DNA of 64,000 bases from an uncultured Candidatus Saccharibacteria bacterium (GCA_964648765.1 CAZYLF010000002.1:68579-132578), one strand, 5' to 3'; positions 33,312 through 61,344 are shown, counted from the stretch's first letter. A program made the numbers and translations. Notes: generated by a model not told the origin, from the letters alone.

Positions 33312-35528
33312 TTACTTGGCATACACAGTCGCGTCGTCGAATTTGATGGAGAGTAAGCGTGACACGCCATCTGAGCCCATCGTCACACCGTAAATCACCG
33401 AGGCGCGACTCATGGTCTCGCGATTGTGAGTAATCAAAATTAATTGGGAATGCTTAGCTAAATTCTCAATCATGTCGCCATACTTACGCGAGTTGGCTTC
33501 ATCAAGCGCGGCGTCCGTTTCGTCTAAAATTAAAAATGGTGGCGGGTTCACCTGCGACATGGCGAAAAGTAACGCGATGGAAGTAAGTGCGCGTTCGCCA
33601 CCCGAGAGCATCTCAAGCGCGTGAACTTTTTTACGTGGCAGATTAACTTTTATCTCTATGCCAGATTTAGTTTCTGTTTCTTCACCAATCGCCATTAAAT
33701 TTGGGATATCTTCACCGCCCTCCTCCATCTCATTTTTTCTTTTGCTCTTTGGCTCAGCGATCGCCTTCAACTGCGCCTCACCACCGCCAAACATTAGTGA
33801 AAAATATTTTTGAAAGTTTATATTAATTTTTTCCAAACCAGTTTGGAATTCTTTATCAATCCGTTCTCGCAATTCATTAATCACCGTCTCAAGTGATGTG
33901 CGGCTCGCCGCCAAATCTGTTAGCTCTTTGGTTAAAAATTCATCCCTCGCCTCCACTTGCTTGTGCTCCGTAAGCACACCGCTTGAATCCACGCCCATGT
34001 CCTCAAGTCTTATCTTTAACTTTTCTATTGCTCGCAAACGCGCAATTTGTTCCTCGCGAGATTCTTCATTTACCTCACTCGGAATTTCCGCCTCATTAAA
34101 ATTTAAAATTTCTTGATCCACCAACACCTGACCCTCGGTCAGTTCTTTTTTAAAAGCATTTTCTTCCAACCTTAATTTATCATCCCGACTTTGCCATAAA
34201 GCCATATGCGAGTCGCTCTCCCGACGGCGCGCTAAGAGCTCATAACTCTCCCGATCTGCTTCCCTGGCCTCATTCATCTTTGACTCTAACTCGATATTTA
34301 TTTGCGCTTCTCTGTTGAGATATTCCTTCTCCTCATTTTTTATTTCACCAATTTTTGATTCCAGTTCATTTTGATCAGATTTAAGTTTCGTTAACTCCTT
34401 GTCTCTCGCCTCAGCCTCATCGTCATTAGATTCTTTTGTTAACTTTTGCCAAAAGTTTTTAATTAAATCTTTAATTTTTTGCCAAGCGCCTTCGGTGGCC
34501 AATCTCTCAATTTCGTCAGTCAAAGTCGCCACCTGATCGCGCGACAAGTAACCACCCTCAACCTCTTTGGGTAGCTTTACTTCAGACTTAAATTGGATCA
34601 AGCCTTCAAGCCGCCCGAGCTGGCGTTCTGAATCTGCTAATTGCTCTCGGCATGCTCTTAAATTAGTTTGGATCTGTCCCAACTCTTTCCGTAAATTACC
34701 CAGCAAATCTTGGTTTGGGTTAGTAACAGAACTTATACTTTTTAATTTTTGCTCTAGATATTTTTTGTCACTTTCTAACTTAGTTTTCTCACTATCAAGT
34801 AAGGCACGAGAATCTTTTAAATACTTGTCTTCAATTTTTAAGTATATTAAATACAGTCTTTTTAATTCAAAGCGTAAATCGTCCGCCTTTTTAATTTTCT
34901 CTACTTCACGGCGCAAAAATTTAAGGTGCGGAGCAATTTCTCGCCTGAGCGATTCCACTTGTTTAATATTTTCTTCAGTTTTCTCTAACTTTTTTTCACT
35001 CTCACTAATCTTCCATTGATAAAGTCGGAGGCCTAGGGCATCTTCCACCATGGTTCGCCGAGAGGCAATATCAGTATTTAAAATTCTATCTGCTTCACCT
35101 TGGCGAATAATTGTGTGCCCTGAGGCACCAAGTGAACCACCAGCCAAAAGTTCCACCACATCCCGCAAACGTACCTCACTGCCGTTAATTGTGTACACGT
35201 TTGTACCATCGCGGTGCACCTCGCGACCAATCGTAAGTTCCGGAAAGTCGACATTAAACTTCCGATCATGGTTATCGAATGTTAGCGTCACTCCGGCGCG
35301 ATTTACTTTACTCTGATTCCCAGCTCCATTAAAAATTAAATCTTCACCCCTCTTACCGCGCAGTGATTTAAGCGACTGCTCACCAAGCGCCCAGCGGAAA
35401 GCTTCCGCCACATTCGACTTGCCCGAACCATTTGGCCCCACCACCGCGGTTACCGGTGCATCGAAAGTTAAAACCGTTTTTTTATTAAAAGATTTAAAGC
35501 CAGAAAGTGTTAACTCTTTAAGCCGCAT
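33312..35528 (-). CDS. smc: SMC-family chromosome segregation ATPase, short form (738 aa)
   Basis: Walker A GPNGSGKSNV. Long coiled coils. ABC signature LSGGERALTSIALLFAM. Walker B FLILDETDAALD. Confidence 0.8.
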   Translation of the reverse strand: MRLKELTLSGFKSFNKKTVLTFDAPVTAVVGPNGSGKSNVAEAFRWALGEQSLKSLRGKRGEDLIFNGAGNQSKVNRAGVTLTFDNHDRKFNVDFPELTIGREVHRDGTNVYTINGSEVRLRDVVELLAGGSLGASGHTIIRQGEADRILNTDIASRRTMVEDALGLRLYQWKISESEKKLEKTEENIKQVESLRREIAPHLKFLRREVEKIKKADDLRFELKRLYLIYLKIEDKYLKDSRALLDSEKTKLESDKKYLEQKLKSISSVTNPNQDLLGNLRKELGQIQTNLRACREQLADSERQLGRLEGLIQFKSEVKLPKEVEGGYLSRDQVATLTDEIERLATEGAWQKIKDLIKNFWQKLTKESNDDEAEARDKELTKLKSDQNELESKIGEIKNEEKEYLNREAQINIELESKMNEAREADRESYELLARRRESDSHMALWQSRDDKLRLEENAFKKELTEGQVLVDQEILNFNEAEIPSEVNEESREEQIARLRAIEKLKIRLEDMGVDSSGVLTEHKQVEARDEFLTKELTDLAASRTSLETVINELRERIDKEFQTGLEKININFQKYFSLMFGGGEAQLKAIAEPKSKRKNEMEEGGEDIPNLMAIGEETETKSGIEIKVNLPRKKVHALEMLSGGERALTSIALLFAMSQVNPPPFLILDETDAALDEANSRKYGDMIENLAKHSQLILITHNRETMSRASVIYGVTMGSDGVSRLLSIKFDDATVYAK

Positions 35529-36238: not shown

Positions 36239-37150
36239 TTATTGATTACCCTTATCCAATAAAACCTTTACTGCCTTAGTAACGATGGGCACAATATCGT
36301 CATACATTCGTAAATCTGGGATCTCCTCAAGTGGAAACCATTTTGCATCATTCAAACCTTCTTGTTTGGTGAGCTTCAGTTGTTTTTTGTCTTTGGCCTC
36401 TGCTAAATAATAGTGAACTTGCTTGCGAATTTTGCCCTTTTCTGGATGTGAGGCTACGTACTCATTTTTACCAATATCTTTTTTAATTTCAATATCTAAA
36501 GAAATTTCTTCTTTAACTTCTTTGGCAGTGCCTTCTTCAGTATTCATCCCCTCTTCAATATGACCTTTTGAAAGCGTCCAGTATCCAAACATATCGTGTA
36601 CTAGCGCGAGCTCTAATTTGTCTCCATCGCGAGAGTAAACTACAGCACCACCTAACTTTTCAACTGGCATTTGTTCATATGGCACGTCATTTACTCGGCG
36701 CTTTTTGGCTGGCACTTCATCCTTACCAGGCTCGCCAAGTTCTTTATAAATTGTGCCGAGCACACCGTTTACAAATCTACCACTATTTTCTCCACCAAAA
36801 GTTTTAGCTAGTTCGATAGCTTCATTTATTGCCACGCGCGCTGGCACCTCTTTACGATCCGCAAAAAGGAGCTCATAAAGTCCGAGCCGTAGTACGTTGC
36901 GATCCACATAAGCTATCTTTTCAATCGGCCAATCTGGGGCCGCCTTTTCAATAATAGAGTCTAATTTGTCTTGCTTACCCACAATGCCATCTACCAAATC
37001 ATCCACAAAATCCGACTCGTCTATACCGGGAGCAAACTCCTCAATGTTACGTTTAACTATCGACCGAAGGGTCGAATTGTTCATGCCACAGAAATCCCAC
37101 TCAAAGAGGGACTGCATAGCAATGCTCCGCGATAGGTGCCGGTTGGCCAT
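36239..37150 (-). CDS. nusB: Transcription antitermination factor NusB fused to a C-terminal NUDIX hydrolase domain
   Basis: NusB: RSIAMQSLFEWDF...VDRNVLRLGLYELLF...AINEAIELAKTFGGENSGRFVNGVLG. NUDIX box: SKGHIEEGMNTEEGTAKEVKEEISL. Confidence 0.8.
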   Translation of the reverse strand: MANRHLSRSIAMQSLFEWDFCGMNNSTLRSIVKRNIEEFAPGIDESDFVDDLVDGIVGKQDKLDSIIEKAAPDWPIEKIAYVDRNVLRLGLYELLFADRKEVPARVAINEAIELAKTFGGENSGRFVNGVLGTIYKELGEPGKDEVPAKKRRVNDVPYEQMPVEKLGGAVVYSRDGDKLELALVHDMFGYWTLSKGHIEEGMNTEEGTAKEVKEEISLDIEIKKDIGKNEYVASHPEKGKIRKQVHYYLAEAKDKKQLKLTKQEGLNDAKWFPLEEIPDLRMYDDIVPIVTKAVKVLLDKGNQ

Positions 37151-37171
37151 ATTTAATTTTTATAAATGTTC

Positions 37172-37390
37172 TTACTTTGAAGACGCTTTGGCCTTCTTTG
37201 CCTTCTTATCTAATTTGGCAAGCACGTTTATGACCTCTCGGCCACGGTAAGTTCCGCAATTCAGACAAACCCGATGCATCAGATGCATTTCACTGCATTT
37301 GGCGCACTTTAAAAGCCGCGGGGCTTTAAGCGCGTGATGACTCCGCCTGTTGGCGGTATGGGATCGGGTATGACGCATTCGTACAACCAT
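37172..37390 (-). CDS. rpmF: 50S ribosomal protein L32
   Basis: [20 protein letters not shown]...[25 protein letters not shown]. Confidence 0.9.
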
Positions 37391-37429
37391 AGTGCTTTTG
37401 AGTATAACCTAAGCCACAAAAAAAGGCAA

Positions 37430-38077
37430 TTACAAATAGCTTTTTCGGTGGATTACTGAGATTCCGAGCTTTTTAATCGCTTTGTAATGGGCTTTTATGC
37501 CGTAGCCTTTATGAACTTCAAAACCGTAACCTGGGTACCTTTTCGCTAAATTTACCATTGTTCTATCGCGGGTTACTTTAGCCACGATGGATGCCAAGGA
37601 AATAATTGGCTCACTTTCATCACCCTTTATTATAGTTTTTTGATTTACAAATTCCGGTGGCGCCTTTAAACTACCATCTAACAAAATCTCGACTGAATCG
37701 GGATCTGCTTTTAACTTTTTTAAACAATTACTAATTCCAATTTTAATCGCCTTCACAATCCCCTGTTTATCAATCACTTTTTCACTCACTAACGCCACGG
37801 CAAAATTTAAATTCCCTTGCTTTTTTTCTTCCTTTAAAAATTCAAACCACACCTCTCTCTGCTTTTCACTCAACTTTTTTGAATCCTTCAATTTCGGCAA
37901 ATTCCCGAAGTTCGACTTCCAAAATTTTGGAGTGTGGTGTAATTTTAAAATTATCACCGCTCCCACTGCCACGGGTCCAGCTAATGGTCCTCTGCCAGCT
38001 TCATCGATACCTATGATCATTTCCCTAGAGTGTGCCAATGTATTCACCTTGATTTGGGAAATCAGCCCGGTAATCAT
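37430..38077 (-). CDS. rnhB: Ribonuclease HII
   Basis: IIGIDEAGRGPLAGPVAVGAVI active-site motif. Confidence 0.9.
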   Translation of the reverse strand: MITGLISQIKVNTLAHSREMIIGIDEAGRGPLAGPVAVGAVIILKLHHTPKFWKSNFGNLPKLKDSKKLSEKQREVWFEFLKEEKKQGNLNFAVALVSEKVIDKQGIVKAIKIGISNCLKKLKADPDSVEILLDGSLKAPPEFVNQKTIIKGDESEPIISLASIVAKVTRDRTMVNLAKRYPGYGFEVHKGYGIKAHYKAIKKLGISVIHRKSYL

Positions 38078-51963: not shown

Positions 51964-52039
51964 TGGAGCCGGTGGTCGGGCTTGAACCGACGACCTACGG
52001 TTTACAAAACCGTTGCTCTACCAACTGAGCTACACCGGC
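51964..52039 (-). tRNA. tRNA-Thr (anticodon UGU), CCA encoded
   Basis: Minus strand reads GCCGGTG-TA-GCTCAGTTGGTAGAGC-A-ACGGT-TTTGTAA-ACCGT-AGGTC-GTCGG-TTCAAGC-CCGAC-CACCGGC-T-CCA. All four stems pair. Anticodon loop U-U-UGU-A-A. Confidence 0.9.
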
Positions 52040-52482
52040 AAATTTTATCTACGCATCAATTCTCCCCGGCCCTGTTTGATCTCTGAAATTTTTAATCTCA
52101 GTAAGAAAAAAGGATGCCTTACCCGCCTCCGGCGTCTGCCGTCTTCCATTATGCACCGAATGAATCATTTTACTAAACCTTTGATCAATACGGGCAATTG
52201 AAAGGTGAAAGAAAAGAAAAACCTTTCGACTTAAAACTAAAAAGTAAAAATAAAATAATCGAGAAATTGTCCTAAATCCCAAATTTACTTTGATTGTAAA
52301 AGAATCGATTTTTCTCCTCAGAGCATCCATCAATAATGGATTACAAGCCTCCCCCATTTGCCCCTTACGCACACAATTTATCTGACACCAAATCAAACCG
52401 ATAGTCATTAGGCTTGAGACAATCGTGAGCGCTATTAAAATGATAGTGGTAATCATATTAGCCCCAAACCCTTGGGGCAAGG

Positions 52483-52938
52483 CTATGCCAAAGCGTCGAT
52501 GCGGACAAATTGTCCCACCTCAATACGCTCACCAAATTTGTGCACCGCAGCCTTCACCATATCTGCCACAGTTGAGTCCGGATTCTTAATGAATGGTTCA
52601 GCCAAAAATGATTCTACATTTTCTGGCGCTGTGGCTGCCACCTGCATGGCGAGATCTTCTGCTAAAGCCTTAAATTCTGCATTCTTGGCCACAAAGTCTG
52701 TCTCTGACCGAAGCAAAAGCATTGTACCGATCTGACCACCATTGTGCAGATAGGTGGCCACTGTGCCCGCACCTAAAGTACGGTCAGATTTTTTGCCTGC
52801 CACCGAGTCGCCTTTGGCGTGCAAGAGTTCAATAGCTTTAGCTAAATCACCTCCAGCGTCCTCCAAGGCTTGTTTACAATGTCCGAAGGATAGGCCCGTT
52901 TGATCTCTTAATTCTTTGATCCCCTTAGCGTCTATCAT
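52483..52938 (-). CDS. tsf: Elongation factor Ts, very short form (151 aa)
   Basis: N-terminal UBA-like domain IKELRDQTGLSFGHCKQALEDAGGDLAKAIELL. Core begins TDFVAKNAEF. Lacks the duplicated dimerisation subdomain. Confidence 0.8.
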   Translation of the reverse strand: MIDAKGIKELRDQTGLSFGHCKQALEDAGGDLAKAIELLHAKGDSVAGKKSDRTLGAGTVATYLHNGGQIGTMLLLRSETDFVAKNAEFKALAEDLAMQVAATAPENVESFLAEPFIKNPDSTVADMVKAAVHKFGERIEVGQFVRIDALA

Positions 52939-53743: not shown

Positions 53744-55486
53744 TTACTGAGGCTCGAAAGTTAGTGGTTGATATTGGAATTCAATATACTTATCATAGGT
53801 CCCACTATCACCACAAACTCCAACCCTAACGCCATACGGTGAATTATCTTTTATTTCAATAAGCTTAACGGGTACCATAATCGAAAAATCAGCCGTATCT
53901 GACATATTTCCGCCAATCACAGTACCTTTAGGAGCTAAGGTAACGCTGCTGATACTCACTCCACCATTTGCGTCTGTGTAATCACAAGTTTTATCAGAGT
54001 TATCATCATTATTGAAATAACATCTAACAAGTTGCTCAATAGGTGTAGCTGGCAAAACAGTACCTGAGGCATGAGTTGGCGAATGATCTTTATTTAACCC
54101 CTTATCTGTAACTTTAGAGATAACTTCCTTGACACAGAAGGTTAACGGTTCATCCGTATTATTACTAATTTTGACAGATGGAGACCTTACCGATAGACCA
54201 GAATTGTGAGAATCGATTTTGATTATACTTGAACTAACACCCAGTGTGTTAGCGTCAATCGGAGGTGGTGTAAGTGTTGGCCAAAAGGTAGCAGAAACTG
54301 ATCGATTTTGATTCATATTCACATTACAAGTTGCAGTTCCACCTGTTGGATCACAGCCAGGCACATCACCTGTCCAACCCTTAAACGAACTTCCTGACGC
54401 CGGAACTGCTGTTAAGGTAACGAGAGTATTTGAAGCATAATCATCCTCACATGATCCAACATTTGAATTACAATTAATATCACCGGATGGGTCATTAGGA
54501 ACTTCCCCAGTTGAAGTAACTACCCCATCACCATTAATATTTAAAGATAATTCTTTGGTCGGACTTGCGGCCGTCACATCTACCGAGCAAATTGCGTGGC
54601 CATATTGGGTATTTGGCTGGAGAGTTGAATCAAAAACCTCAACGTCTAAAGTAACCTTGCCATCAGATGGCAAAACACTTGGCTCTAATGTTGTAAAACT
54701 TTGGGCATAAGTTATTGGATTACCAGACTCAAAAGGTATAATAGCGCCTGCAACATTAACTCGGTAAAACATCCCACTTAAAGAACTATAATTACCAGTC
54801 ACCGTAAGATTCCAAGTTATGTCATTTGGCCCACTGCCAAGTATTGCAGGATTGGGAGTACCGCTACAACTCACATTTAGGCTATCAACTAAAACGCAAC
54901 CTTGAGCCGGTAAGCCACTATCGCCTGGGCAAAAATCAATCCACCCAATCACATCTCCCCCCCACGCTTCACCATATAATGAATTAGGAAAAGATTGGCC
55001 CGGGCTAGAACCAACGGCAACACCGTAACTCTGCGGTTCTGTTTGATCACTAGACATCTTAATCCACCCATCCCAACCGCCAAGTTGAATATTGCTTTTA
55101 AGCGCCCCTGAACATCCACTTAAAAACACGGAGCAAGCTCTTGCCCAGCCCGTTACTGGACTACCAGTTATTGGCCCAGTAATTTTTGTTGAATGCTGTG
55201 CAAGATTAGCAGGATAATTCGGTGGTGCAGGATACGGCCCAGGTGGGTCTAATCGGATCCAACCAATATTGTTGTTCCAAGCATAACCAAGAATATTACC
55301 AGTGGCGGTTTCAAGTCGGACTCTATTTGGCCATGAGCCAAAAGCTATCCAGCCCACATTTGAACTCCAAGCCCAACCTGAGATATTTTGAACTTGTGGT
55401 GGTGTTTGTGCGTAGGATGTAAAGTTGCCACTAAACCACCCGCACACTACAAAAACTAATATTAGAGCAATTATAGACTTCCTCAT
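53744..55486 (-). CDS. Secreted repeat protein with a GW-rich module and an InlB B-repeat-like domain
   Basis: Signal peptide. GWAWSSNVGWIAFGSWP...GYAWNNNIGWIRLDPPGPYP...GWARACSVFLSGCSG...GWDGWIKM. Domain TLVTLTAVPASGSSFKGWTGD...NVNMNQNRSVSATF. Confidence 0.6.
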   Translation of the reverse strand: MRKSIIALILVFVVCGWFSGNFTSYAQTPPQVQNISGWAWSSNVGWIAFGSWPNRVRLETATGNILGYAWNNNIGWIRLDPPGPYPAPPNYPANLAQHSTKITGPITGSPVTGWARACSVFLSGCSGALKSNIQLGGWDGWIKMSSDQTEPQSYGVAVGSSPGQSFPNSLYGEAWGGDVIGWIDFCPGDSGLPAQGCVLVDSLNVSCSGTPNPAILGSGPNDITWNLTVTGNYSSLSGMFYRVNVAGAIIPFESGNPITYAQSFTTLEPSVLPSDGKVTLDVEVFDSTLQPNTQYGHAICSVDVTAASPTKELSLNINGDGVVTSTGEVPNDPSGDINCNSNVGSCEDDYASNTLVTLTAVPASGSSFKGWTGDVPGCDPTGGTATCNVNMNQNRSVSATFWPTLTPPPIDANTLGVSSSIIKIDSHNSGLSVRSPSVKISNNTDEPLTFCVKEVISKVTDKGLNKDHSPTHASGTVLPATPIEQLVRCYFNNDDNSDKTCDYTDANGGVSISSVTLAPKGTVIGGNMSDTADFSIMVPVKLIEIKDNSPYGVRVGVCGDSGTYDKYIEFQYQPLTFEPQ

Positions 55487-58400
55487 TTACAATCATCAGG
55501 ATTACCTTCACAAATACCTGGAAAATTAACTAAGAGATTGCTTTTCTTGACGTTATTTGGATGAGTCGCAGTTTCATTACACACATACACCTTGAGATCA
55601 TATGGGCTGGCAAGCTCAATATCAGCAAGACATGTTGATTGATAGATATGAATATTAACTTGACTAGAACTACCAGCATTTACAGTGCCTGATGGCCCCG
55701 CAATATCATTACTTGGAGTACATATTTGTAAACCATTTCCATCACTAGTTTTAAAATCACAAACTGGATGAGAAACTTGACCACAACCAGAATCATTTAT
55801 AATAGTCTGCATAGATTTTCCGAAATAATCAGGATCTTGGTCTCTGGAAACAATTGAGCTAATACAAAACTTTGCATTAGATGTGTCATCATTAAAGATC
55901 CTAAGGGCAGCAAATTGTGGATCAGTTGATGTAATTTGAGTTGTGGCTGAAACTCTGAAATTGATTCCGCTTGCCGTGGTCTGACCAAAAGTAGCGATTA
56001 CGTCTTTTACACCATCCACATTTACAGTACAAGTATTACCACTACAAGCTGAACCTGCTCCCGACCAAGTAACACTCCTATTTAATCCTGCTGGATTTGC
56101 AGTAAGTGTGACACTTGTCGTGGCTGTGTAAGTTTTGGAACAACTTGCAGTACAATTAGTTCCGAGTCCAGTTACGTACTCTCCAGGATTTTCACCAGCC
56201 ACATCTAGATTTAGAATAAATCTTTTAAACGTAGCTGTAACTGTTTTATCTGAATTCAGTGTGCCTAGATTACAAAGAATTCCTGGTCCACTACATCCTC
56301 CACCGCTCCATCCGGTAAACACGGTTGGCGACAAAGTTGAAACAGATGGTACGGAAAGTACCACACTTGTGCCAGCAGGGTAAGATTTCGTACAGCCGGA
56401 AGCGCCATTTGTTAGACAACTTATTCCAGTACCATTCGTCACTTGACCGTTTGTCACGCCATCCAATTCTTGCAGATTGACTGTCACAGTATAATTCGTT
56501 CCCCCGCCACATGGTGGAGAAGAGCAACCACCGTCATCAAGGTCGAATTTCCCTATTGATGTTTGAATCCCATTATTTTTAGTAAATATAAATGTTTGGG
56601 TGTCACAAGCGCCGGTAGTGGCTGTGCCACAAGCAGAACCGGTCCACGGACTAACAAACTTGCTACCCGAAACAGGATTACCAGTTACTGTAATAACAGT
56701 ACCTAGATCATACATATAACAACCCGCTACCTGTGGAGCACATGGAGAACCTACTGGTGACACCGCAATATTTCCATCTCCAGTACCAATCTTGATGGTA
56801 CTAAATTGATATTTCTGAACATCAAATCTGGCAATTGCCAAATCTAAAGAACCACTTTTAGGAAATGTGAACGACGCAGTATTGCAGGAACCAACCGTGG
56901 CATTACTACAAGCGACTCCAGTCCAAGGAGAAATAAACTTACTACCTGAGCTTGGGTTGGCAGTAACGGTTACCAAAGTTCCAGCTGTGTACCTATAACA
57001 ACTAGGAGATGGGGTTGCGCACGGTAAACCTGCTGGTGACACACTAATTGAACCTGTACCAGTGCTTTGTGGGCTAATCACTGTCCTTAATTCAAAAGTA
57101 GGAAGAGGTTGGGTCACAGGAGGTAAATTTGTACAGTGAGTACCCCCAGCTTCATCACAAAAACTTACCCAACCAAGATTATTTGATCCCCAAGCATAAC
57201 CCACAAGATTGCGTGCACCAGAGGTTGCATCTACCTTAACTGCTACACCGTTTGACCAGGTTCCGTTCATTTTGATCCAACCATCCCATTCCCCACGTAG
57301 AGCCACATGACGCATATTACCCATACAACCAGTTACAAATACCGAACACGCCCGTGCCCAACCTTCAATTTTTTGATTTGGAGTTACACCAGTAAGACGA
57401 GAACTGTAAGGTGGGGTATTAGAATCAGGGTAGGGCCCTGAAGGATCAAATTCTATCCAACCAATATTCGGTCCCCAAGCGAAACCATTTAAATTATTGT
57501 TATTGTTTTCATCAACTTTTACCCCGTACTCATCAAAGAATGAAGTAGAGTTGGCTGGTCCGAAATAAATCCAACCCATTCCAGAACTCCAAGCCCAACC
57601 TGTTAACCTATCTGTACCAGTAGAATGATAATTTCCATAATTGTTAGTGATAGTGAACATCCCACTGCGACCTGGTGCAATATCTAAAGCTCCAATATTT
57701 GCCGTGTCTAATTCATAATAATAATTACCAGTTGGAACAGTGGGAACAAGGCTGGCATAATGCCCATCATTTACTCCCAAAGAAAACGGTGCTTGTTGAG
57801 GAATTCCCTGTTCAGTAAAAAGTTGAGCTGAGATACTTTGCGTGGCTGGAACTATTGATGGGGCATTCCATCTGACTGAATTTATAGGTAATGGCGAGAC
57901 ACCGGTACGCCAAATTTCACCTGATTGTGGAAAACTAACGCTAATCTTTAGCGATGCAATTTTAATCTTTCCAAGATAGTCACATGTGATTGGTACGATG
58001 CCCGACACGGGTAGAGCACAAACTTGTATGTCATAGTCACCGCTTGGATAACCACCCGCTTGAGCTAAACTTTGCGGTATTGTAATTGTAAAATGATCAT
58101 TGAATGAAATTGGTGTGGGAGTAAAATCGTGGAATATAGCTGGTTGCGGAACACTATTAAATGATTGATGGAGGGTAACGGTAAACCGACTAGTATTTGG
58201 AATATTATTGTTATTCCAATTAACCAAATAATTTTGACTGATATAAAGTGGTAATGTACTTGGAGAACTTGTTGGACTAGTAATACTTATACTTGGTGCA
58301 CCACTGCCAACAATATTAAACACTCCGCTCTCTCCACTTGAATTTGGACGACCAAAAGCTGAGCTCAAACGATACTTGTAGGCACCTGGAGCATTTGGCA

Positions 58401-60027
58401 CCGGATTAACTACATAATTCCCCGCACTAGGATTGGTATTAGGGATATCACGCACTGTGGCTACCACCTGTCCAGTGCTCGCATTTAATCTTTCAAGATT
58501 CAACTTTTCTGTGGTTGGCAAATTGTTGCTCCAGGCCACAACTTGGTTTGAACCTGCTGGCCAATTTGCACCAGCTAGTGGTGAGGTGAAATTGATATTA
58601 TAAGTTGGCGCTGTGTACGGCACCACATCAAACACACCACTTTTGGCCACTTGAACTAGTACACCAGAAACAAGATTCACTGGGGCAACTTCAAAATAAT
58701 ATTTACCGGCAGTAATATCGCTTGGCAAAATTTGGATGCTCTGATTGCTATCATTTGGACTAGTAACTTGTAGTATTTGAGTGCCAGCCGAGCTCCAGGT
58801 ATTAAACTTCATTAATCGGACATTCATTTGTGTGTTTGCGAGAATATCGGGCGTTGTTTGCCAAGTCACATTTACAAAATCTCCACCCATAAATTGGCTT
58901 GAATTATATTGACTTTGGCCAGATGGTGGCCACTGGTCCCCGCCCAAAGGAGCAGTTACTGTAGCATTATAAATACTAGGATTTACCATCTTGATAGTCA
59001 CCGGTGACACGACTTTGGCACCTGTAAACACTCCTGGTGCAGAAATTTCTCTGACCTCTAAAGTGTAATCACCCGTTGGAATATTTTGTAAAGTAGAAAT
59101 CTGTGGCACAACCCCATAACAAGTGCCATTTGCGGCAACACCACTTGATCCAGCAAGATAGGTGTTAGCGGTAGCGGTTTTTCGTATAACATAAGCCTCA
59201 ACGTTTCTTGTTGGGTTAACACCAATACAACCGATTGTTGCTGGCGAAGCTGTATTATTCCAAAAAGTTGTCCCTGTACTCCCGTCATATGGAGCACTTA
59301 AAGTAATATTACTTGGAGCAACAATAGTAAATGGTGGGGTAAATCCTGTTATGGTGTAACTGCCATAACTACGATAAAGCTCGAGCTGGAATTGCCCTCC
59401 TCCCCATGCGTTAGCGGGAACTGGGATCGTCATTGATCCAGTATTGGGAACATTTGATCCTTGGGCCACCGATAGACCAGTTGTTAAACTATAGAGTTTC
59501 CAATTAAGAGTAAAACTTGAAGAAACATTGGGAGAAGTCCAGGTGACGTTGGCTGAAGTCCCTGCCGTCCACTGCGTTGAAGAACTGGGATTAGAGATGT
59601 TAATCAAGCGAGCGCTGGCCGTTGGCGCCACAGTAATCACTGGAGTTTGGCTTTCATAAAGTGTCCCAGGCAAACCATACCTTAAACGAAGAAAATACTT
59701 CCCTGGCATAATCACCCCAGGAGAATTAAAAAGTGGTGGGACAGTGTAAGTAAAACTTTTAGGATCTGGATTTGGTTGAGAAAAATCGCTAAAAATAGTG
59801 TACTGAAGGGAAGGGAAATCTTTATTAACTAAATATGCCCGATTGGGTGATGTCGAAATATTTGGGCTAGACCAACTCACAGTGTAAGTTTGGCCAGGCT
59901 GCCAAGTTGTATCAGATGATGGTGAAGTAAACGTTGCTGCGAGTGGCGTCTGAGCTTGGGTTAAAGAAAACAAACCAAAAAATACTACGAGACTAACTCC
60001 GGAAGATAATAATATTTTTTTTAACAT
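55483..60027 (-). CDS. Giant (1514 aa) secreted surface protein: N-terminal tandem ~100-aa beta modules, GW-rich module, tandem InlB B-repeat-like domains, Cys-rich C-terminus
   Basis: Signal peptide. Repeats xFTSPxxxxxWxxGxxxxVxW occur at least 5 times. GWAWSSGMGWIYFGP...GFAWGPNIGWIEFDPSGPYP...GWARACSVFVTGCMG...EWDGWIKM. Repeated TVTANPSSGSKFISPWTG..C...F units. Confidence 0.65.
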   Translation of the reverse strand: MLKKILLSSGVSLVVFFGLFSLTQAQTPLAATFTSPSSDTTWQPGQTYTVSWSSPNISTSPNRAYLVNKDFPSLQYTIFSDFSQPNPDPKSFTYTVPPLFNSPGVIMPGKYFLRLRYGLPGTLYESQTPVITVAPTASARLINISNPSSSTQWTAGTSANVTWTSPNVSSSFTLNWKLYSLTTGLSVAQGSNVPNTGSMTIPVPANAWGGGQFQLELYRSYGSYTITGFTPPFTIVAPSNITLSAPYDGSTGTTFWNNTASPATIGCIGVNPTRNVEAYVIRKTATANTYLAGSSGVAANGTCYGVVPQISTLQNIPTGDYTLEVREISAPGVFTGAKVVSPVTIKMVNPSIYNATVTAPLGGDQWPPSGQSQYNSSQFMGGDFVNVTWQTTPDILANTQMNVRLMKFNTWSSAGTQILQVTSPNDSNQSIQILPSDITAGKYYFEVAPVNLVSGVLVQVAKSGVFDVVPYTAPTYNINFTSPLAGANWPAGSNQVVAWSNNLPTTEKLNLERLNASTGQVVATVRDIPNTNPSAGNYVVNPVPNAPGAYKYRLSSAFGRPNSSGESGVFNIVGSGAPSISITSPTSSPSTLPLYISQNYLVNWNNNNIPNTSRFTVTLHQSFNSVPQPAIFHDFTPTPISFNDHFTITIPQSLAQAGGYPSGDYDIQVCALPVSGIVPITCDYLGKIKIASLKISVSFPQSGEIWRTGVSPLPINSVRWNAPSIVPATQSISAQLFTEQGIPQQAPFSLGVNDGHYASLVPTVPTGNYYYELDTANIGALDIAPGRSGMFTITNNYGNYHSTGTDRLTGWAWSSGMGWIYFGPANSTSFFDEYGVKVDENNNNNLNGFAWGPNIGWIEFDPSGPYPDSNTPPYSSRLTGVTPNQKIEGWARACSVFVTGCMGNMRHVALRGEWDGWIKMNGTWSNGVAVKVDATSGARNLVGYAWGSNNLGWVSFCDEAGGTHCTNLPPVTQPLPTFELRTVISPQSTGTGSISVSPAGLPCATPSPSCYRYTAGTLVTVTANPSSGSKFISPWTGVACSNATVGSCNTASFTFPKSGSLDLAIARFDVQKYQFSTIKIGTGDGNIAVSPVGSPCAPQVAGCYMYDLGTVITVTGNPVSGSKFVSPWTGSACGTATTGACDTQTFIFTKNNGIQTSIGKFDLDDGGCSSPPCGGGTNYTVTVNLQELDGVTNGQVTNGTGISCLTNGASGCTKSYPAGTSVVLSVPSVSTLSPTVFTGWSGGGCSGPGILCNLGTLNSDKTVTATFKRFILNLDVAGENPGEYVTGLGTNCTASCSKTYTATTSVTLTANPAGLNRSVTWSGAGSACSGNTCTVNVDGVKDVIATFGQTTASGINFRVSATTQITSTDPQFAALRIFNDDTSNAKFCISSIVSRDQDPDYFGKSMQTIINDSGCGQVSHPVCDFKTSDGNGLQICTPSNDIAGPSGTVNAGSSSQVNIHIYQSTCLADIELASPYDLKVYVCNETATHPNNVKKSNLLVNFPGICEGNPDDCK

Positions 60028-60030
60028 TTT

Positions 60031-61344
60031 CTATTTGAAACAAATTGCCTCACAGGTCGCTCCACGGTATTGGAGCACCCAGGGTTTGGTGGCGCCAGCA
60101 GCCATAGAAGTTCCAGGATCTAATATTACTTTGCATAACCCTGGGCCAACCTGGGCATCATCTGGTATATCTTGCACACCAGTTAAGAAGCATAACTTAG
60201 CGTTTATAAAAAATTCCTGTGGAAGAGTGTCGATGCTGCCAGTATCAGAATGTGTCTGTGAATAAACCGTAAAAGTATCGCCGATCGGCAAGCTTTTCCA
60301 CTCCGCATTCCCGGAAGTGTCTTTTGATGCTAGAACCTTACCAACTCCAGGTGTGCCACCACCAATTCTAATATTGTTATTGACATCCAGATCACTCCCA
60401 ACAAGCAGACCACCACTAAAAGTTCCCTTGCCGACTGAATTCATGGTCAGGCCCTCATTGTCATTATCACCAGAAATCCAATGGCCGTTTAGATTAAGTG
60501 TCTGTAGGGCAACATGATTCCCTAAATTATCTGGTTGGGTTCCACCTGTACCTCCAGCGTTATCGATAGCACATTGCCAACCTGAACCCGTATTTTTAAG
60601 AATATAGTTAGTGGGGCAAGTTTTGAGAGATAGAATTGGATTTGATTGAGTGCCCGATAAAATTAAGCCGTCACCAGCACCCACACTCACACTACTACCA
60701 GTAGCAGTACCACAAACCCAAGCCGAGCCATTCCACTGTAGAACTTGGTTGAGGCCGCAATTACTTGGTGGCTGGAATCCTCCGCCTCCACCACCCGAAT
60801 TAGTATCAGTATTTAGAATAACAAGGGTTTCCTCTGTGGTTCCGTCGCCGTCGACATCCCTCATACTCCTCACAAATCCAATTGGCCCACCAGAGTCCAG
60901 CATTAAGTTACCTTTAGAGTTCGTTGGGCTCATTGAAGTTAATTGGCCAGTACCAAAATTAGCCAACTCTTTAAAAATAATTTTTTTATAACCTCCCAAA
61001 TCTGCTGCCTTCGTACAATTATTACCATCCTTATCACAGTAATCAGTGGCACCAACTTTACCCTCAACATCTAAGAGAAGGTTAGGGCTGGGGGTTTCGT
61101 TGGCAGCACCACCTACTACCATGCCAGTGAGAGCGCGGAAGAGGCCGAGGATGCTTAAGCCACCATCTTTGATTTGGGGAGTAGCTGATGAGTCGATAGG
61201 TGGATTACAGCCTGGGTAGCCATCTGGGCACAGTGGGGCTTGGCCACTGCCTGGTGGGGGGTTATAGGCGGCGTGGGTGGGAGTAATGGAGAAAATTAAA
61301 ACGCTAAGTAAAATAAAGAAAGAAGTAACAATTAACTTTGCCAT
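60031..61344 (-). CDS. Secreted Gly/Asn/Thr-rich protein with paired-Cys motifs (adhesin or fibre-like)
   Basis: Signal peptide MAKLIVTSFFILLSVLIFSITPTHA. Motifs C-x5-L-x-W-N-G-S-x-W-x-C. First gene of the three-gene secreted-protein operon. Confidence 0.55.
   Translation of the reverse strand: MAKLIVTSFFILLSVLIFSITPTHAAYNPPPGSGQAPLCPDGYPGCNPPIDSSATPQIKDGGLSILGLFRALTGMVVGGAANETPSPNLLLDVEGKVGATDYCDKDGNNCTKAADLGGYKKIIFKELANFGTGQLTSMSPTNSKGNLMLDSGGPIGFVRSMRDVDGDGTTEETLVILNTDTNSGGGGGGFQPPSNCGLNQVLQWNGSAWVCGTATGSSVSVGAGDGLILSGTQSNPILSLKTCPTNYILKNTGSGWQCAIDNAGGTGGTQPDNLGNHVALQTLNLNGHWISGDNDNEGLTMNSVGKGTFSGGLLVGSDLDVNNNIRIGGGTPGVGKVLASKDTSGNAEWKSLPIGDTFTVYSQTHSDTGSIDTLPQEFFINAKLCFLTGVQDIPDDAQVGPGLCKVILDPGTSMAAGATKPWVLQYRGATCEAICFK

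What the first reader, a model, noticed from the sequence alone, without database searches (positions are those of the whole stretch)
53744..61344. Three tandem giant secreted proteins sharing GW-rich and InlB B-repeat-like modules
A single minus-strand operon (437, 1514 and 580 aa, all with signal peptides) makes up about 12 percent of the window. The 580- and 1514-aa proteins share a paralogous about 150-aa module with highly conserved strings: GWAWS..GWI.FG, G.AW..NIGWI..DP.GPYP, GWARACSVF..GC.G and WDGWIKM. Both also carry one or more copies of a ~70-aa unit (V/T-L-T-A-x-P-x-x-G-x-x-F-x-x-W-x-G...C...V-x-A-x-F) resembling the divergent InlB B-repeat (Flg_new_2) fold. The 1514-aa protein additionally has five or more N-terminal ~100-aa repeats (F-T-S-P...W..G...V-x-W). 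The 437-aa protein has repeated C-x5-L-x-W-N-G-S-x-W-x-C motifs. Such proteins are candidate host- or episymbiont-attachment factors. The conserved GW module has no name that I know of.
Basis: seen in the sequence. Interest (0 to 1): 0.5.

Follow-up and report, generated by a model that had tools for sequence, protein, structure and literature searches.

The report
Unnamed Trp-rich barrel surface proteins
Three back-to-back genes in an ultrasmall (CPR/Patescibacteria) bacterium encode fast-evolving secreted surface proteins; two contain a widespread but unnamed tryptophan-rich beta-barrel domain that in related genomes is encoded inside type IV pilus operons, which makes them good candidates for host attachment.

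Summary
Three co-directional, tightly coupled minus-strand genes (437, 1514 and 580 aa) each begin with a signal-peptide-like segment. The 1514-aa protein also has six Kre9_KNH-type Ig-like repeats.

The GW module matches nothing in Pfam, NCBIfam, PHROGs or PDB sequences. It nevertheless defines a very large family restricted to Patescibacteria (8,024 50%-identity clusters, all "hypothetical"). AlphaFold predicts a small beta-barrel built from four "G-W-A-W…G-W-I" hairpins, with generic fold matches only.

GW genes recur in three contexts: the same prfA|rpsB slot as here; immediately beside fibre-like genes of the 437-aa protein's family, whose profile matches Bdellovibrio MAT fibres; and inside type IV pilus operons next to PilD and minor pilins. 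Full-length homologues of the 580-aa protein occur in the pilus context.

Against a close relative, flanking housekeeping proteins are 88–96% identical, but these proteins are 61% and 35%. There is no DGR in the window.

Best reading: a non-covalently docked surface or pilus-associated adhesin set. The function is inferred, not shown.

The parts
60031..61344 (-). C437: 437-aa secreted fibre-like protein, member of 'F1', an unnamed Patescibacteria family with a conserved N-terminal motif and a variable remainder
   Evidence: ORF. Clusters with 48 locus-derived proteins by BLAST. The family profile (A3) hits Bdellovibrio fibre Bd2133 (PDB 8ond) at E=1.4e-6. Some F1 members carry Peptidase_S74, Collagen or Gly_rich_2. 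C437 itself has no Pfam, NCBIfam or PHROG hit.
61270..61344 (-). C437 signal-peptide-like segment (aa 1-25, MAKLIVTSFFILLSVLIFSITPTHA|A)
   Evidence: Only one N-terminal hydrophobic stretch, apart from a single weak 17-mer at aa 65. By inspection; no predictor was run.
61156..61269 (-). C437 conserved F1 N-terminal motif (aa 26-63; family consensus AWxxPxxxPPxxNxxxPxNxGxxxQxKxGxL)
   Evidence: A3 alignment consensus; P40, P49, Q57 and K59 are at least 90% conserved across 47 members.
61048..61092 (-). C437 single copy of the fibre repeat (PSPNLLLDVEGKVGA), matching the 'GNVGIGTxxPxxKLxVxG' beta-helix repeat of MAT/tail-fibre-like proteins
   Evidence: Profile alignment to 8ond and 8ojn lies on this motif. 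For C437 alone this is one motif copy read by eye.
60712..60759 (-). C437 Cys motif copy 1 (CGLNQVLQWNGSAWVC, aa 196-211)
   Evidence: Regex. Only 2 of 49 F1 members have such motifs.
60571..60618 (-). C437 Cys motif copy 2, divergent (CPTNYILKNTGSGWQC, aa 243-258)
55483..60027 (-). B1514: 1514-aa secreted multi-domain protein (signal peptide, 6 Ig-like repeats, GW barrel, 4 Flg_new_2, C-terminal Ig-like domain)
   Evidence: Starts 3 nt after the C437 stop codon.
57697..59952 (-). B1514 N-terminal Ig-like (Kre9_KNH-type) repeat region, six detected copies (aa 20-122, 131-226, 344-452, 466-563, 570-675, 688-777)
   Evidence: Pfam PF10342, E=1.8e-13, 4 stretches. Self-BLAST. Iterated profile.
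57127..57621 (-). B1514 GW barrel module (aa 803-967)
   Evidence: 40% identical to the A580 module, E=1e-30. Profile coordinates.
55975..57069 (-). B1514 four Flg_new_2 (divergent InlB B-repeat) copies (aa 987-1070, 1080-1163, 1189-1272, 1280-1351)
   Evidence: Pfam PF18998, E=3.9e-8. Self-BLAST 49% identity, E=9e-30 between copies 1 and 2. Profile.
55486..55974 (-). B1514 C-terminal domain, homologous to the A580 C-terminal Ig-like domain but lacking the terminal tail motif
   Evidence: BLAST colinearity. Aligned as the last row of A4.
53744..55486 (-). A580: 580-aa secreted protein (signal peptide, GW barrel, middle region, Flg_new_2, C-terminal Ig-like domain, tail)
   Evidence: Start codon overlaps the B1514 stop codon (ATGA). 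Full-length homologues occur in the prfA/rpsB slot and in T4P operons of other genomes.
54908..55396 (-). A580 GW barrel module (aa 31-193): four Trp-rich hairpins (GWAWSSNVGWIAF, GYAWNNNIGWIRL, GWARACSVF…GWDGWIKM, GEAWGGDVIGWIDF)
54524..54907 (-). A580 middle region (aa 194-321), no family match, most variable together with Flg_new_2
   Evidence: 52% identity to the orthologue, against 73% for GW. No Pfam hit. Fold not tested.
54272..54523 (-). A580 Flg_new_2 copy (aa 322-405)
   Evidence: Pfam PF18998, E=4.4e-12, aa 345-403. Profile.
53747..54253 (-). A580 C-terminal Ig-like (PapD/ASH/MSP-type) beta-sandwich domain (aa 412-580)
53747..53785 (-). A580 extreme C-terminal strand and tail (IEFQYQPLTFEPQ), the subfamily version of a C-terminal motif specific to GW-module proteins
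   Evidence: Alignment A4: F and Y at least 90% conserved, and most rows end in a Pro at or next to the C-terminus. Across loci the strict tail motif occurs in 12/88 GW proteins against 1/1037 other ORFs, Fisher p=3e-13.

Best explanation
This is a cell-surface gene cluster of a Patescibacteria (CPR, Paceibacteria/Parcubacteria-type) chromosome. It sits in a conserved slot between prfA and rpsB.

All three products are exported by Sec. None has a membrane anchor or sortase signal, so any retention at the cell surface must be non-covalent.

C437 is a fibre-like protein. It has a conserved N-terminal docking motif, a tail-fibre/MAT-type repeat, and a variable distal part.

B1514 and A580 are rods of beta domains built around the 'GW barrel'. 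This is a ~165-aa domain made of four Trp-rich hairpins and predicted to close into a small beta-barrel. It is the hallmark of a very large, unnamed family restricted to Patescibacteria.

I infer that the conserved ends act as docking elements: the GW barrel, and in A580 the C-terminal Ig-like domain with its tail. The Ig-like and Flg_new_2 repeats would then be the variable, fast-evolving spacer or contact part.

Full-length homologues of A580 are encoded inside type IV pilus operons in other genomes, between the major pilins or PilD and four minor-pilin-like genes. I therefore infer that the A580 type most likely acts as a non-pilin pilus accessory, in a role like PilY1 or TM7x PilX, or docks next to the pilus. 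Together with the fibre, the set would mediate attachment to the host cell.

Shown: gene structure, domain content, family size and taxonomic range, predicted folds, gene neighbourhoods, and divergence rates. Inferred: export, surface retention, the docking role of the GW barrel, pilus association, and adhesion.
For: The domain architecture is typical of surface proteins: Ig-like Kre9_KNH repeats, Flg_new_2, and a PapD/ASH-type Ig domain. There is a single N-terminal hydrophobic segment and no other anchor. Cysteines are conserved (ACSVF..GC in A2; C78 and C90 in A4).

The GW family has 8,024 representatives at E<=1e-3 and 5,028 at E<=1e-10. The module starts within 60 residues of the N-terminus in 136/154 top members. 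All named members are Patescibacteria 'hypothetical proteins', and 453 loci in species-representative genomes are essentially all Patescibacteria.

Pilus link: the GW gene is immediately adjacent to a T4P gene in 21 of 82 loci. 30 of 32 adjacent pairs are on the same strand, with a median gap of 57 bp, and the order is fixed: pilins-GW-PilD-4 pilin-like, or PilD-GW-4 pilin-like. Pfam confirms the T4P identities. 12 of 50 metagenome loci repeat the pattern. A580 aligns over GW, middle and C-terminal regions to eight T4P-embedded proteins.

Fibre link: an F1 gene is immediately adjacent to a GW gene in 19 loci, median gap 13 bp, and in 14 of 50 metagenome loci.

Diversification: against the nearest relative, flanking proteins are 88-96% identical, A580 is 61% (GW 73, C-terminal 65, middle 52, Flg_new_2 47) and B1514 is 35%.

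Precedents: TM7x PilX1/PilX2 are large pilus-locus proteins without prepilin signals, proposed to be PilY1-like adhesins (PMC11623550). Bdellovibrio MAT fibres have an invariant N-terminal anchor and swappable tips (PMC10769870).
Against: No pilus gene lies in this 64-kb window. Here the link to pili rests on homology to genes in other genomes.

Many GW genes (17/88 and 19/50 loci) have neither pilus nor fibre neighbours, and other recurrent slots are next to housekeeping genes (rpmF-nusB-rnc, nusA, rny). The family is therefore not uniformly pilus-linked.

The loci examined were the best 80 of more than 440 hits in each collection, and the two sets partly overlap. The percentages are not unbiased.

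Confidence: 0.5

Rival explanations
1. The GW barrel is a self cell-wall anchor. It would bind peptidoglycan or a wall glycopolymer of the CPR cell itself, in the manner of SLH, LysM, Listeria GW or choline-binding repeats. It would hold varied passenger domains on the surface with no physical link to pili, and the pilus-operon adjacency would reflect only co-regulation of surface structures.
For: The module is the most conserved part of otherwise variable proteins. It is usually at the mature N-terminus. It combines with many different passenger domains: PKD, fn3, Big, TSP3, Flg_new_2. It is rich in invariant Trp and Gly in a hairpin repeat, as in aromatic carbohydrate-binding repeats. There is no other anchor. 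Many GW genes are not near pilus genes.
Against: No sequence match to any wall-binding family in Pfam at E<=1. The fixed position inside T4P operons, with short same-strand gaps, in at least 21 species-level genomes is hard to explain by co-regulation alone. Short proteins that consist only of the signal peptide, the GW module and the tail carry no passenger to display.
Confidence: 0.2
2. The GW barrel is a peptide-docking module. It would capture either the conserved N-terminal motif of the neighbouring F1 fibres, anchoring them, or the GW-specific C-terminal tail of another GW protein, giving head-to-tail chains or an autoinhibited form.
Confidence: 0.1
3. The GW barrel is a secreted small-molecule or nutrient-binding barrel, like hemophilin, avidin, lipocalin or YceI. 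It would scavenge a host-derived compound for a metabolically reduced cell.
Against: The matches are generic for any 8-stranded barrel. The module is fused to long Ig-like rods and embedded in pilus operons, which does not fit a soluble scavenger. No transporter genes recur next to it.
Confidence: 0.06
4. The GW barrel inserts into a membrane, either the host's (a pore or fusion-like contact) or an unrecognised outer layer, as a small transmembrane beta-barrel.
Confidence: 0.04

Closest known systems
PilY1/PilC-type non-pilin pilus-tip adhesins (Pseudomonas, Neisseria, Myxococcus) and the PilX1/PilX2 proteins of Saccharibacteria TM7x
   Same: These are large proteins encoded next to minor pilins in type IV pilus loci. 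They have an ordinary or non-canonical signal peptide instead of a prepilin leader, and carry an accessory beta-rich domain. This matches the GW genes embedded in Paceibacteria T4P operons (PMC11623550).
   Different: There is no sequence match, and the fold differs: a small barrel plus Ig-like domains instead of a seven-bladed beta-propeller or jelly roll. The window's own copies are not next to pilus genes. Neither pilus association nor a priming role has been tested.
Bdellovibrio bacteriovorus MAT (mosaic adhesive trimer) fibres, e.g. Bd2133 and Bd3182 (PDB 8ond, 8ojn), and phage tail fibres
   Same: This applies to C437 and family F1. Both have a conserved N-terminus and a variable remainder. 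They share the 'GNVGIGTxxPxxKLxVxG' repeat (profile E=1.4e-6). Some members end in a Peptidase_S74 chaperone and others do not. Both occur in a bacterium that lives on other bacteria.
   Different: C437 is short (437 aa) with one recognisable repeat copy and no S74 domain. The F1 N-terminal motif is its own and was not shown to be homologous to the MAT N-terminal domain. Trimer formation has not been tested. No PHROG match.
Listeria InlB: B-repeat (Flg_new/Flg_new_2) and C-terminal GW modules
   Same: A580 and B1514 contain Pfam Flg_new_2 'divergent InlB B-repeat' domains above threshold. Conceptually, InlB is also held on the surface non-covalently by Gly-Trp-containing modules.
   Different: The GW module here is unrelated to the Listeria GW (SH3-like) modules. 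There is no Pfam hit at E<=1 and the predicted fold is different. There are no LRR or internalin domains.
Aromatic hairpin-repeat wall-binding domains (choline-binding / CW_binding_1 repeats)
   Same: Both are short Gly- and aromatic-rich beta-hairpin units repeated in tandem in secreted proteins. Some GW-family members have 6-10 hairpin pairs.
   Different: No profile match. Here four hairpins are predicted to close into a barrel and not to form an open solenoid.
Small 8-stranded up-and-down beta-barrels (OmpA/NspA, hemophilin, TbpB/fHbp barrel lobes, avidins)
   Same: These are the best structural matches to the GW model, with ~90-105 aligned residues at rmsd 2.4-3.5 A.

Membership tests
Pfam Flg_new_2 (PF18998, divergent InlB B-repeat) | Score at or above Pfam's gathering threshold (23.6 bits) | tested here: met
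   A580 46.3 bits (aa 345-403); B1514 33.6 bits, 2 stretches. Four copies in B1514 by self-comparison and profile.
Pfam Flg_new (PF09479, Listeria-Bacteroides repeat) | Profile match | tested here: not met
   Not listed for any of the three proteins at E<=1.
Pfam Kre9_KNH (PF10342, Ig-like domain) | Score at or above the gathering threshold (24.6 bits) | tested here: met
   B1514 51.5 bits, 4 stretches. Six repeat copies by profile.
Listeria GW module (SH3-like cell-wall anchor) | Profile match to the Pfam GW/SH3-like families | tested here: not met
   No such family at E<=1 in the Pfam scan.
Listeria GW module (SH3-like cell-wall anchor) | SH3-like fold | tested here: not met
   The model is a ~165-aa barrel whose best matches are 8-stranded up-and-down barrels.
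Choline-binding / CW_binding_1 repeats | Profile match to the ~20-aa repeat | tested here: not met
   No hit at E<=1.
Type IV pilins / pseudopilins | Prepilin leader with G|F-T-L-I-E and the N_methyl motif | tested here: not met
   No N_methyl hit in A580, B1514 or C437. The regex flags no window ORF. One distant family member (P0098) does have a pilin N-terminus.
PilY1/PilC pilus-tip adhesins | C-terminal beta-propeller domain (Pfam Neisseria_PilC) | tested here: not met
   No Pfam hit. The predicted folds are a barrel and an Ig-like sandwich.
PilY1/PilC pilus-tip adhesins | Gene located beside the minor pilin genes of a T4P locus | tested here: inconclusive
   Met for full-length homologues of A580 in 8 or more other genomes. 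Not met in this window, which has no pilus genes.
PilY1/PilC pilus-tip adhesins | Physical association with minor pilins at the pilus tip, and priming of assembly | not testable with these tools
   Needs complex prediction, pull-downs or cryo-ET.
MAT / tail-fibre-like trimeric fibres (for C437) | Beta-helix fibre repeat shared with Bd2133/Bd3182 | tested here: inconclusive
   The F1 family profile hits 8ond at E=1.4e-6 and 8ojn at E=0.038. C437 alone gives no PDB or Pfam hit and shows one motif copy by eye.
MAT / tail-fibre-like trimeric fibres (for C437) | C-terminal Peptidase_S74 intramolecular chaperone (S74 subfamily) | tested here: not met
   Present in 1 of 47 F1 members and absent from C437. 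The MAT family also has non-S74 members.
MAT / tail-fibre-like trimeric fibres (for C437) | Trimeric assembly | not testable with these tools
   No multimer prediction was available.
DGR (diversity-generating retroelement) target protein | Nearby reverse transcriptase and a template/variable repeat pair | tested here: not met
   Window self-BLASTN finds no repeats at E<=1e-3. The only YxDD-type motifs are in pheS, nusB and gyrB ORFs. The rest of the genome was not available.
Sortase-anchored surface proteins | C-terminal LPXTG, followed by a hydrophobic segment and a basic tail | tested here: not met
   No C-terminal hydrophobic segment. The LPxTG-like strings are internal and have no TM segment.
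Outer-membrane 8-stranded beta-barrels (OmpA-like) | Fold similarity together with a lipid-facing hydrophobic exterior | tested here: inconclusive

The most novel reading that the evidence does not exclude
The GW barrel and the GW-specific C-terminal tail (…[FW]-x-E-[IV]-x-P-[RFQ], or …EF-x-Y-x5-P-[RE] in the A580 type) form a previously unrecognised docking system of monoderm CPR cells. The barrel would capture a short terminal peptide: its own family's tail, the N-terminus of the neighbouring fibres, or a minor pilin. This would let non-pilin proteins be mounted on type IV pili or chained head-to-tail into surface filaments. It would be a new way of building host-attachment structures, specific to Patescibacteria.
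Probability: 0.12. Interest if true: 0.8.

Novelty: new variant of a known kind. Interest (0 to 1): 0.55.

Why it matters
How ultrasmall CPR/Patescibacteria recognise and hold on to their hosts is largely unknown outside a few cultured Saccharibacteria, and type IV pili are the main suspects. This work points to one of the largest unnamed domain families of this radiation, with at least 8,000 sequence clusters.

The family is secreted, fast-evolving and often embedded in the pilus operon beside the minor pilins. It is also often paired with fibre genes resembling the prey-recognition fibres of Bdellovibrio.

If the GW barrel proves to be the piece that mounts variable adhesive domains on pili or on the envelope, it would give a concrete handle for studying host range in uncultured Paceibacteria: a domain model, candidate partners and hypervariable regions. 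At the least, the family deserves a Pfam or InterPro entry.

Tried and rejected
DGR-driven variation: rejected for the window, which has no RT and no TR/VR repeats.

Phage or prophage origin: no PHROG matches, and no GW module in IMG/VR contigs. The flanks are housekeeping genes.

Listeria-type GW, choline-binding, LysM or SLH anchors: no profile hits.

Pilins: no prepilin motifs in the three proteins.

Sortase or TM anchoring: none.

Direct pairwise homology of C437 to the L001 484-aa protein: not significant by BLASTP (E=2.2). Family membership was later supported by clustering.

PDB sequence searches: nothing for the GW profile or the C-terminal-domain profile. The single beta-lactamase hit for C437 (E=0.0066) is a low-complexity, Pro/Ala-rich alignment, and I discounted it.

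Technical dead ends. The first word-indexed homologue search found only 2 hits. The third, with the C-terminal domain alignment, found none. The AFDB Foldseek library was unavailable. A4 was too divergent to seed a metagenome scan.

Literature: no paper contains the motif strings. CPR protein-family and T4P papers do not describe this domain.


Full report
**Observation**

C437 and B1514 are separated by 3 nt. The B1514 stop codon overlaps the A580 start codon (ATGA). This fits one translationally coupled unit, although simple promoter and terminator scans are uninformative.

The flanks are housekeeping genes: an SLT-domain protein, rpmE and prfA upstream, and rpsB and tsf downstream. The window also carries rpoB, rpoC, dnaE, gyrB, dnaG and smc, so this is chromosomal DNA. 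Related loci and all named homologues come from Patescibacteria/CPR. The window's own B1514 is on record only in an unnamed read-archive assembly.

**Anatomy**

Each protein has a single hydrophobic segment at the N-terminus, followed by an A-x-A-like site. None has a further TM segment or a sortase signal.

B1514 consists of:
- six Ig-like repeats matching Pfam Kre9_KNH;
- the GW module (aa 803-967);
- four Flg_new_2 copies;
- a C-terminal domain.

A580 is colinear with the C-terminal half of B1514. It consists of:
- the GW module (aa 31-193);
- an unassigned middle region;
- one Flg_new_2 copy (E=4.4e-12);
- a C-terminal domain.

The two GW modules are 40% identical (E=1e-30). C437 shares nothing with the other two proteins. 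Its Cys motif is present twice.

**The GW module as a family**

It has no match in Pfam-A, NCBIfam, PHROGs or PDB sequences, and the motif strings appear in no paper held. An exhaustive profile search over 1.84 billion cluster representatives found 8,024 proteins at E<=1e-3 and 5,028 at E<=1e-10.

In 136 of the 154 sequences examined (the top hits plus the window's own two proteins), the module begins within 60 residues of the N-terminus, directly after the signal peptide or anchor. Some proteins contain 3-10 copies of its first two hairpins.

Co-occurring domains are typical of surface proteins: PKD, fn3, Big, Rha78A-type Ig, TSP3 and Flg_new_2. Every source name is 'hypothetical protein', from Parcubacteria, Paceibacterota, Wolfebacteria, Nealsonbacteria, Portnoybacteria and similar groups. 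One conserved peptide pattern alone found 453 confirmed loci in species-representative genomes, essentially all Patescibacteria. None was found in viral contigs.

**Predicted structures**

With a 43-sequence alignment, AlphaFold2 gives a confident all-beta model of the A580 module (pLDDT 86.4, pTM 0.84). The strands coincide with four repeats of the pattern G-[WYF]-A-W-x(3-4)-G-W-I-x-F. Nearly all invariant columns are Gly or Trp.

**Genomic context elsewhere**

I called ORFs in 80 loci from species-representative genomes, plus two loci fetched earlier and the window itself, and clustered them. Three contexts recur.

1. The window's own slot. The order SLT-rpmE-prfA-[one or two GW genes of 470-620 aa]-rpsB-tsf appears in about 15 genomes.

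2. Fibre pairing. Family F1, which includes C437, lies within three genes of a GW gene in 32 loci. It is immediately adjacent in 19 loci, with a median gap of 13 bp.

3. Type IV pilus operons. A GW gene is immediately adjacent to a pilus gene in 21 loci. 30 of 32 adjacent pairs are on the same strand, with a median gap of 57 bp. The orders are fixed, for example PilB, PilT-like, PilC, pilins, GW, PilD, then four pilin-like genes. Pfam confirms T2SSE, T2SSF, Peptidase_A24 and N_methyl for an example operon.

A580 aligns over its whole length to slot proteins and to eight pilus-embedded proteins. Both groups share its C-terminal ending …EF-x-Y-x5-P-[RE].

A second sample of 50 usable metagenome loci shows the same patterns: 12 pilus, 14 F1 and 5 slot. 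It overlaps partly with the first sample, and both are 'best 80' subsets, so the percentages are indicative only. A further slot, upstream of rpmF-nusB-rnc, also recurs.

**Rate of change**

A close relative (L084-L087) has the same slot with a 1208-aa and a 561-aa GW protein but no F1 gene. Seven flanking or nearby housekeeping proteins are 88-96% identical between the two genomes. A580 is 61% identical to its orthologue, and B1514 only 35%.

| Region of A580 | Identity to orthologue |
|---|---|
| GW module | 73% |
| C-terminal domain | 65% |
| Middle region | 52% |
| Flg_new_2 | 47% |

GW-module identities show that the A/B duplication predates the split of the two genomes: A to its orthologue 73%, A to B 44%. 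B's module is closer to a protein from elsewhere (60%) than to its positional orthologue (51%). This points to replacement or very fast change at this position.

There is no DNA-level repeat and no reverse transcriptase in the window, so a DGR is not the cause here.

**The fibre-like protein**

F1 members share a conserved N-terminus directly after the signal peptide (AWxxPxxxPPxxNxxxPxNxGxxxQxKxGxL) and are otherwise very variable. A few carry Peptidase_S74, Collagen or Gly-rich domains.

The family profile matches the Bdellovibrio fibre Bd2133 (8ond, E=1.4e-6) on the 'GNVGIGTxxPxxKLxVxG' repeat. C437 has one such copy. The MAT fibres of Bdellovibrio are surface trimers with an invariant N-terminal anchor and exchangeable tips (PMC10769870), which is a close analogy. 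Membership of C437 itself is not established.

**An unexplained coupled feature**

More than half of the sequences examined end in a short conserved tail. Pro is at position -2 in 51/154 and Glu at -2 in 37/154. Across all locus ORFs the strict motif is almost exclusive to GW proteins (12/88 against 1/1037, p=3e-13). It is also present in minimal proteins made only of signal peptide, GW module and tail. It is therefore tied to the module and is not a general sorting tag.

**Interpretation**

*Shown:* structure, content, distribution, contexts and rates.

*Inferred:* these are Sec-exported proteins retained non-covalently at the surface. The conserved GW barrel, and in A580 the C-terminal Ig-like domain with its tail, serve as docking ends, and the repeats in between are variable. 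The A580 type works with type IV pili as a non-pilin accessory, comparable in role to PilY1 or TM7x PilX1/PilX2 (PMC11623550). Together with the fibre, the set mediates host attachment. I give this 0.5.

*Main rivals:*
- a self-wall anchor unrelated to pili (0.2);
- a peptide-docking barrel for fibre N-termini or GW tails (0.1);
- a ligand-scavenging barrel (0.06);
- a membrane-inserting barrel (0.04).

**Novelty**

The kind of system, multi-domain surface adhesins and pilus-locus accessory proteins, is known. The defining domain, its size as a family, its restriction to Patescibacteria, its operon position and its coupled C-terminal tail were not found described in the libraries and papers available here. 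I rate it a new variant of a known kind, of moderate interest.

Noticed in passing
GW-family proteins generally (P0001, P0002 and about half of P0003-P0152); window 53747..53785 for A580: A short conserved extreme C-terminal tail (…P-x-[WF]-K-E-[IV]-x-P-[RFQ], or …[FY]-x-E-[FI]) is almost exclusive to GW-module proteins (12/88 against 1/1037 ORFs). It occurs even in ~240-aa proteins that consist only of signal peptide, GW module and tail. Its role is unknown.
   Followed up: partly
L084-L087 compared with window 60031..61344: The closest relative has prfA followed directly by the large GW gene. The F1/C437 fibre gene is absent, so its presence in this slot is a recent gain or loss.
   Followed up: partly
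window 55483..60027 compared with L084 3620-7246: The positional orthologue of B1514 is 1208 aa and only 35% identical, while the flanks are about 92% identical. B's GW module is closer to a protein from another source (P0037, 60%) than to its positional orthologue (51%). This suggests gene replacement or hypervariability at this slot.
   Followed up: partly
L001 10001-14563; L054; L065; L129: A recurrent small cluster follows nusB-rnc: a short GW-only protein (~245-268 aa), a ~100-127-aa protein that is proline-rich with an N-terminal hydrophobic segment in L001 (only that one was read), an F1 fibre, and sometimes an fn3/Flg_new_2 protein.
   Followed up: no
L088, L097, L098, L146, L150, L152, L156; window about 36239..38077: A further conserved slot for GW genes lies just upstream of rpmF-nusB-rnc, after RNase HII in L088. 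The window has the same housekeeping order but no GW gene there.
   Followed up: partly
L041 1-12217 and similar loci (L012, L038, L043, L081): Paceibacteria T4P operons have a very regular order: three small membrane proteins (possibly PilM/N/O-like; not checked), PilB, a ~130-aa protein (possibly a response regulator; not checked), a PilT-like ATPase, PilC, 1-3 pilins, GW, PilD and four pilin-like genes, followed by ligA.
   Followed up: partly
L037 (chromosome OZ246403.1): In this complete 716-kb genome, a PilC gene and a pilin gene lie only about 5 kb upstream of the SLT-rpmE-prfA-GW-rpsB slot. The two contexts may be related by rearrangement.
   Followed up: no
P0098 (651 aa): One family member has a genuine prepilin N-terminus (MKGFTLIELV…), followed by fn3 and GW hairpin repeats. 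It is a modular pilin that carries the GW repeat directly.
   Followed up: no
window 52483..52938 and 33312..35528: EF-Ts is only 151 aa and SMC only 738 aa, much shorter than in typical bacteria. The short EF-Ts is conserved across the syntenic loci (149-199 aa).
   Followed up: no
window 52049..52480 (-) and family f23 in the syntenic loci: A ~125-160-aa ORF with an N-terminal hydrophobic segment follows tsf in most syntenic loci. It has no annotation.
   Followed up: no
window 51967..52039 (-): This is the only Rfam hit in the window, a tRNA gene (74.9 bits).
   Followed up: no
L053 (CAZXEW010000046.1): A contig labelled 'uncultured Gammaproteobacteria' carries GW, pilins and ligA in the Patescibacteria arrangement. 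It is probably mis-binned or mislabelled. Many 'Candidatus Saccharibacteria' labels in the same project also look generic.
   Followed up: no
L084 9077-9765 compared with L086 9007-9765: In one assembly of the relative, rpsB is called as two pieces (52 + 179 aa) instead of 252 aa. This is probably an assembly frameshift or strain variant.
   Followed up: no
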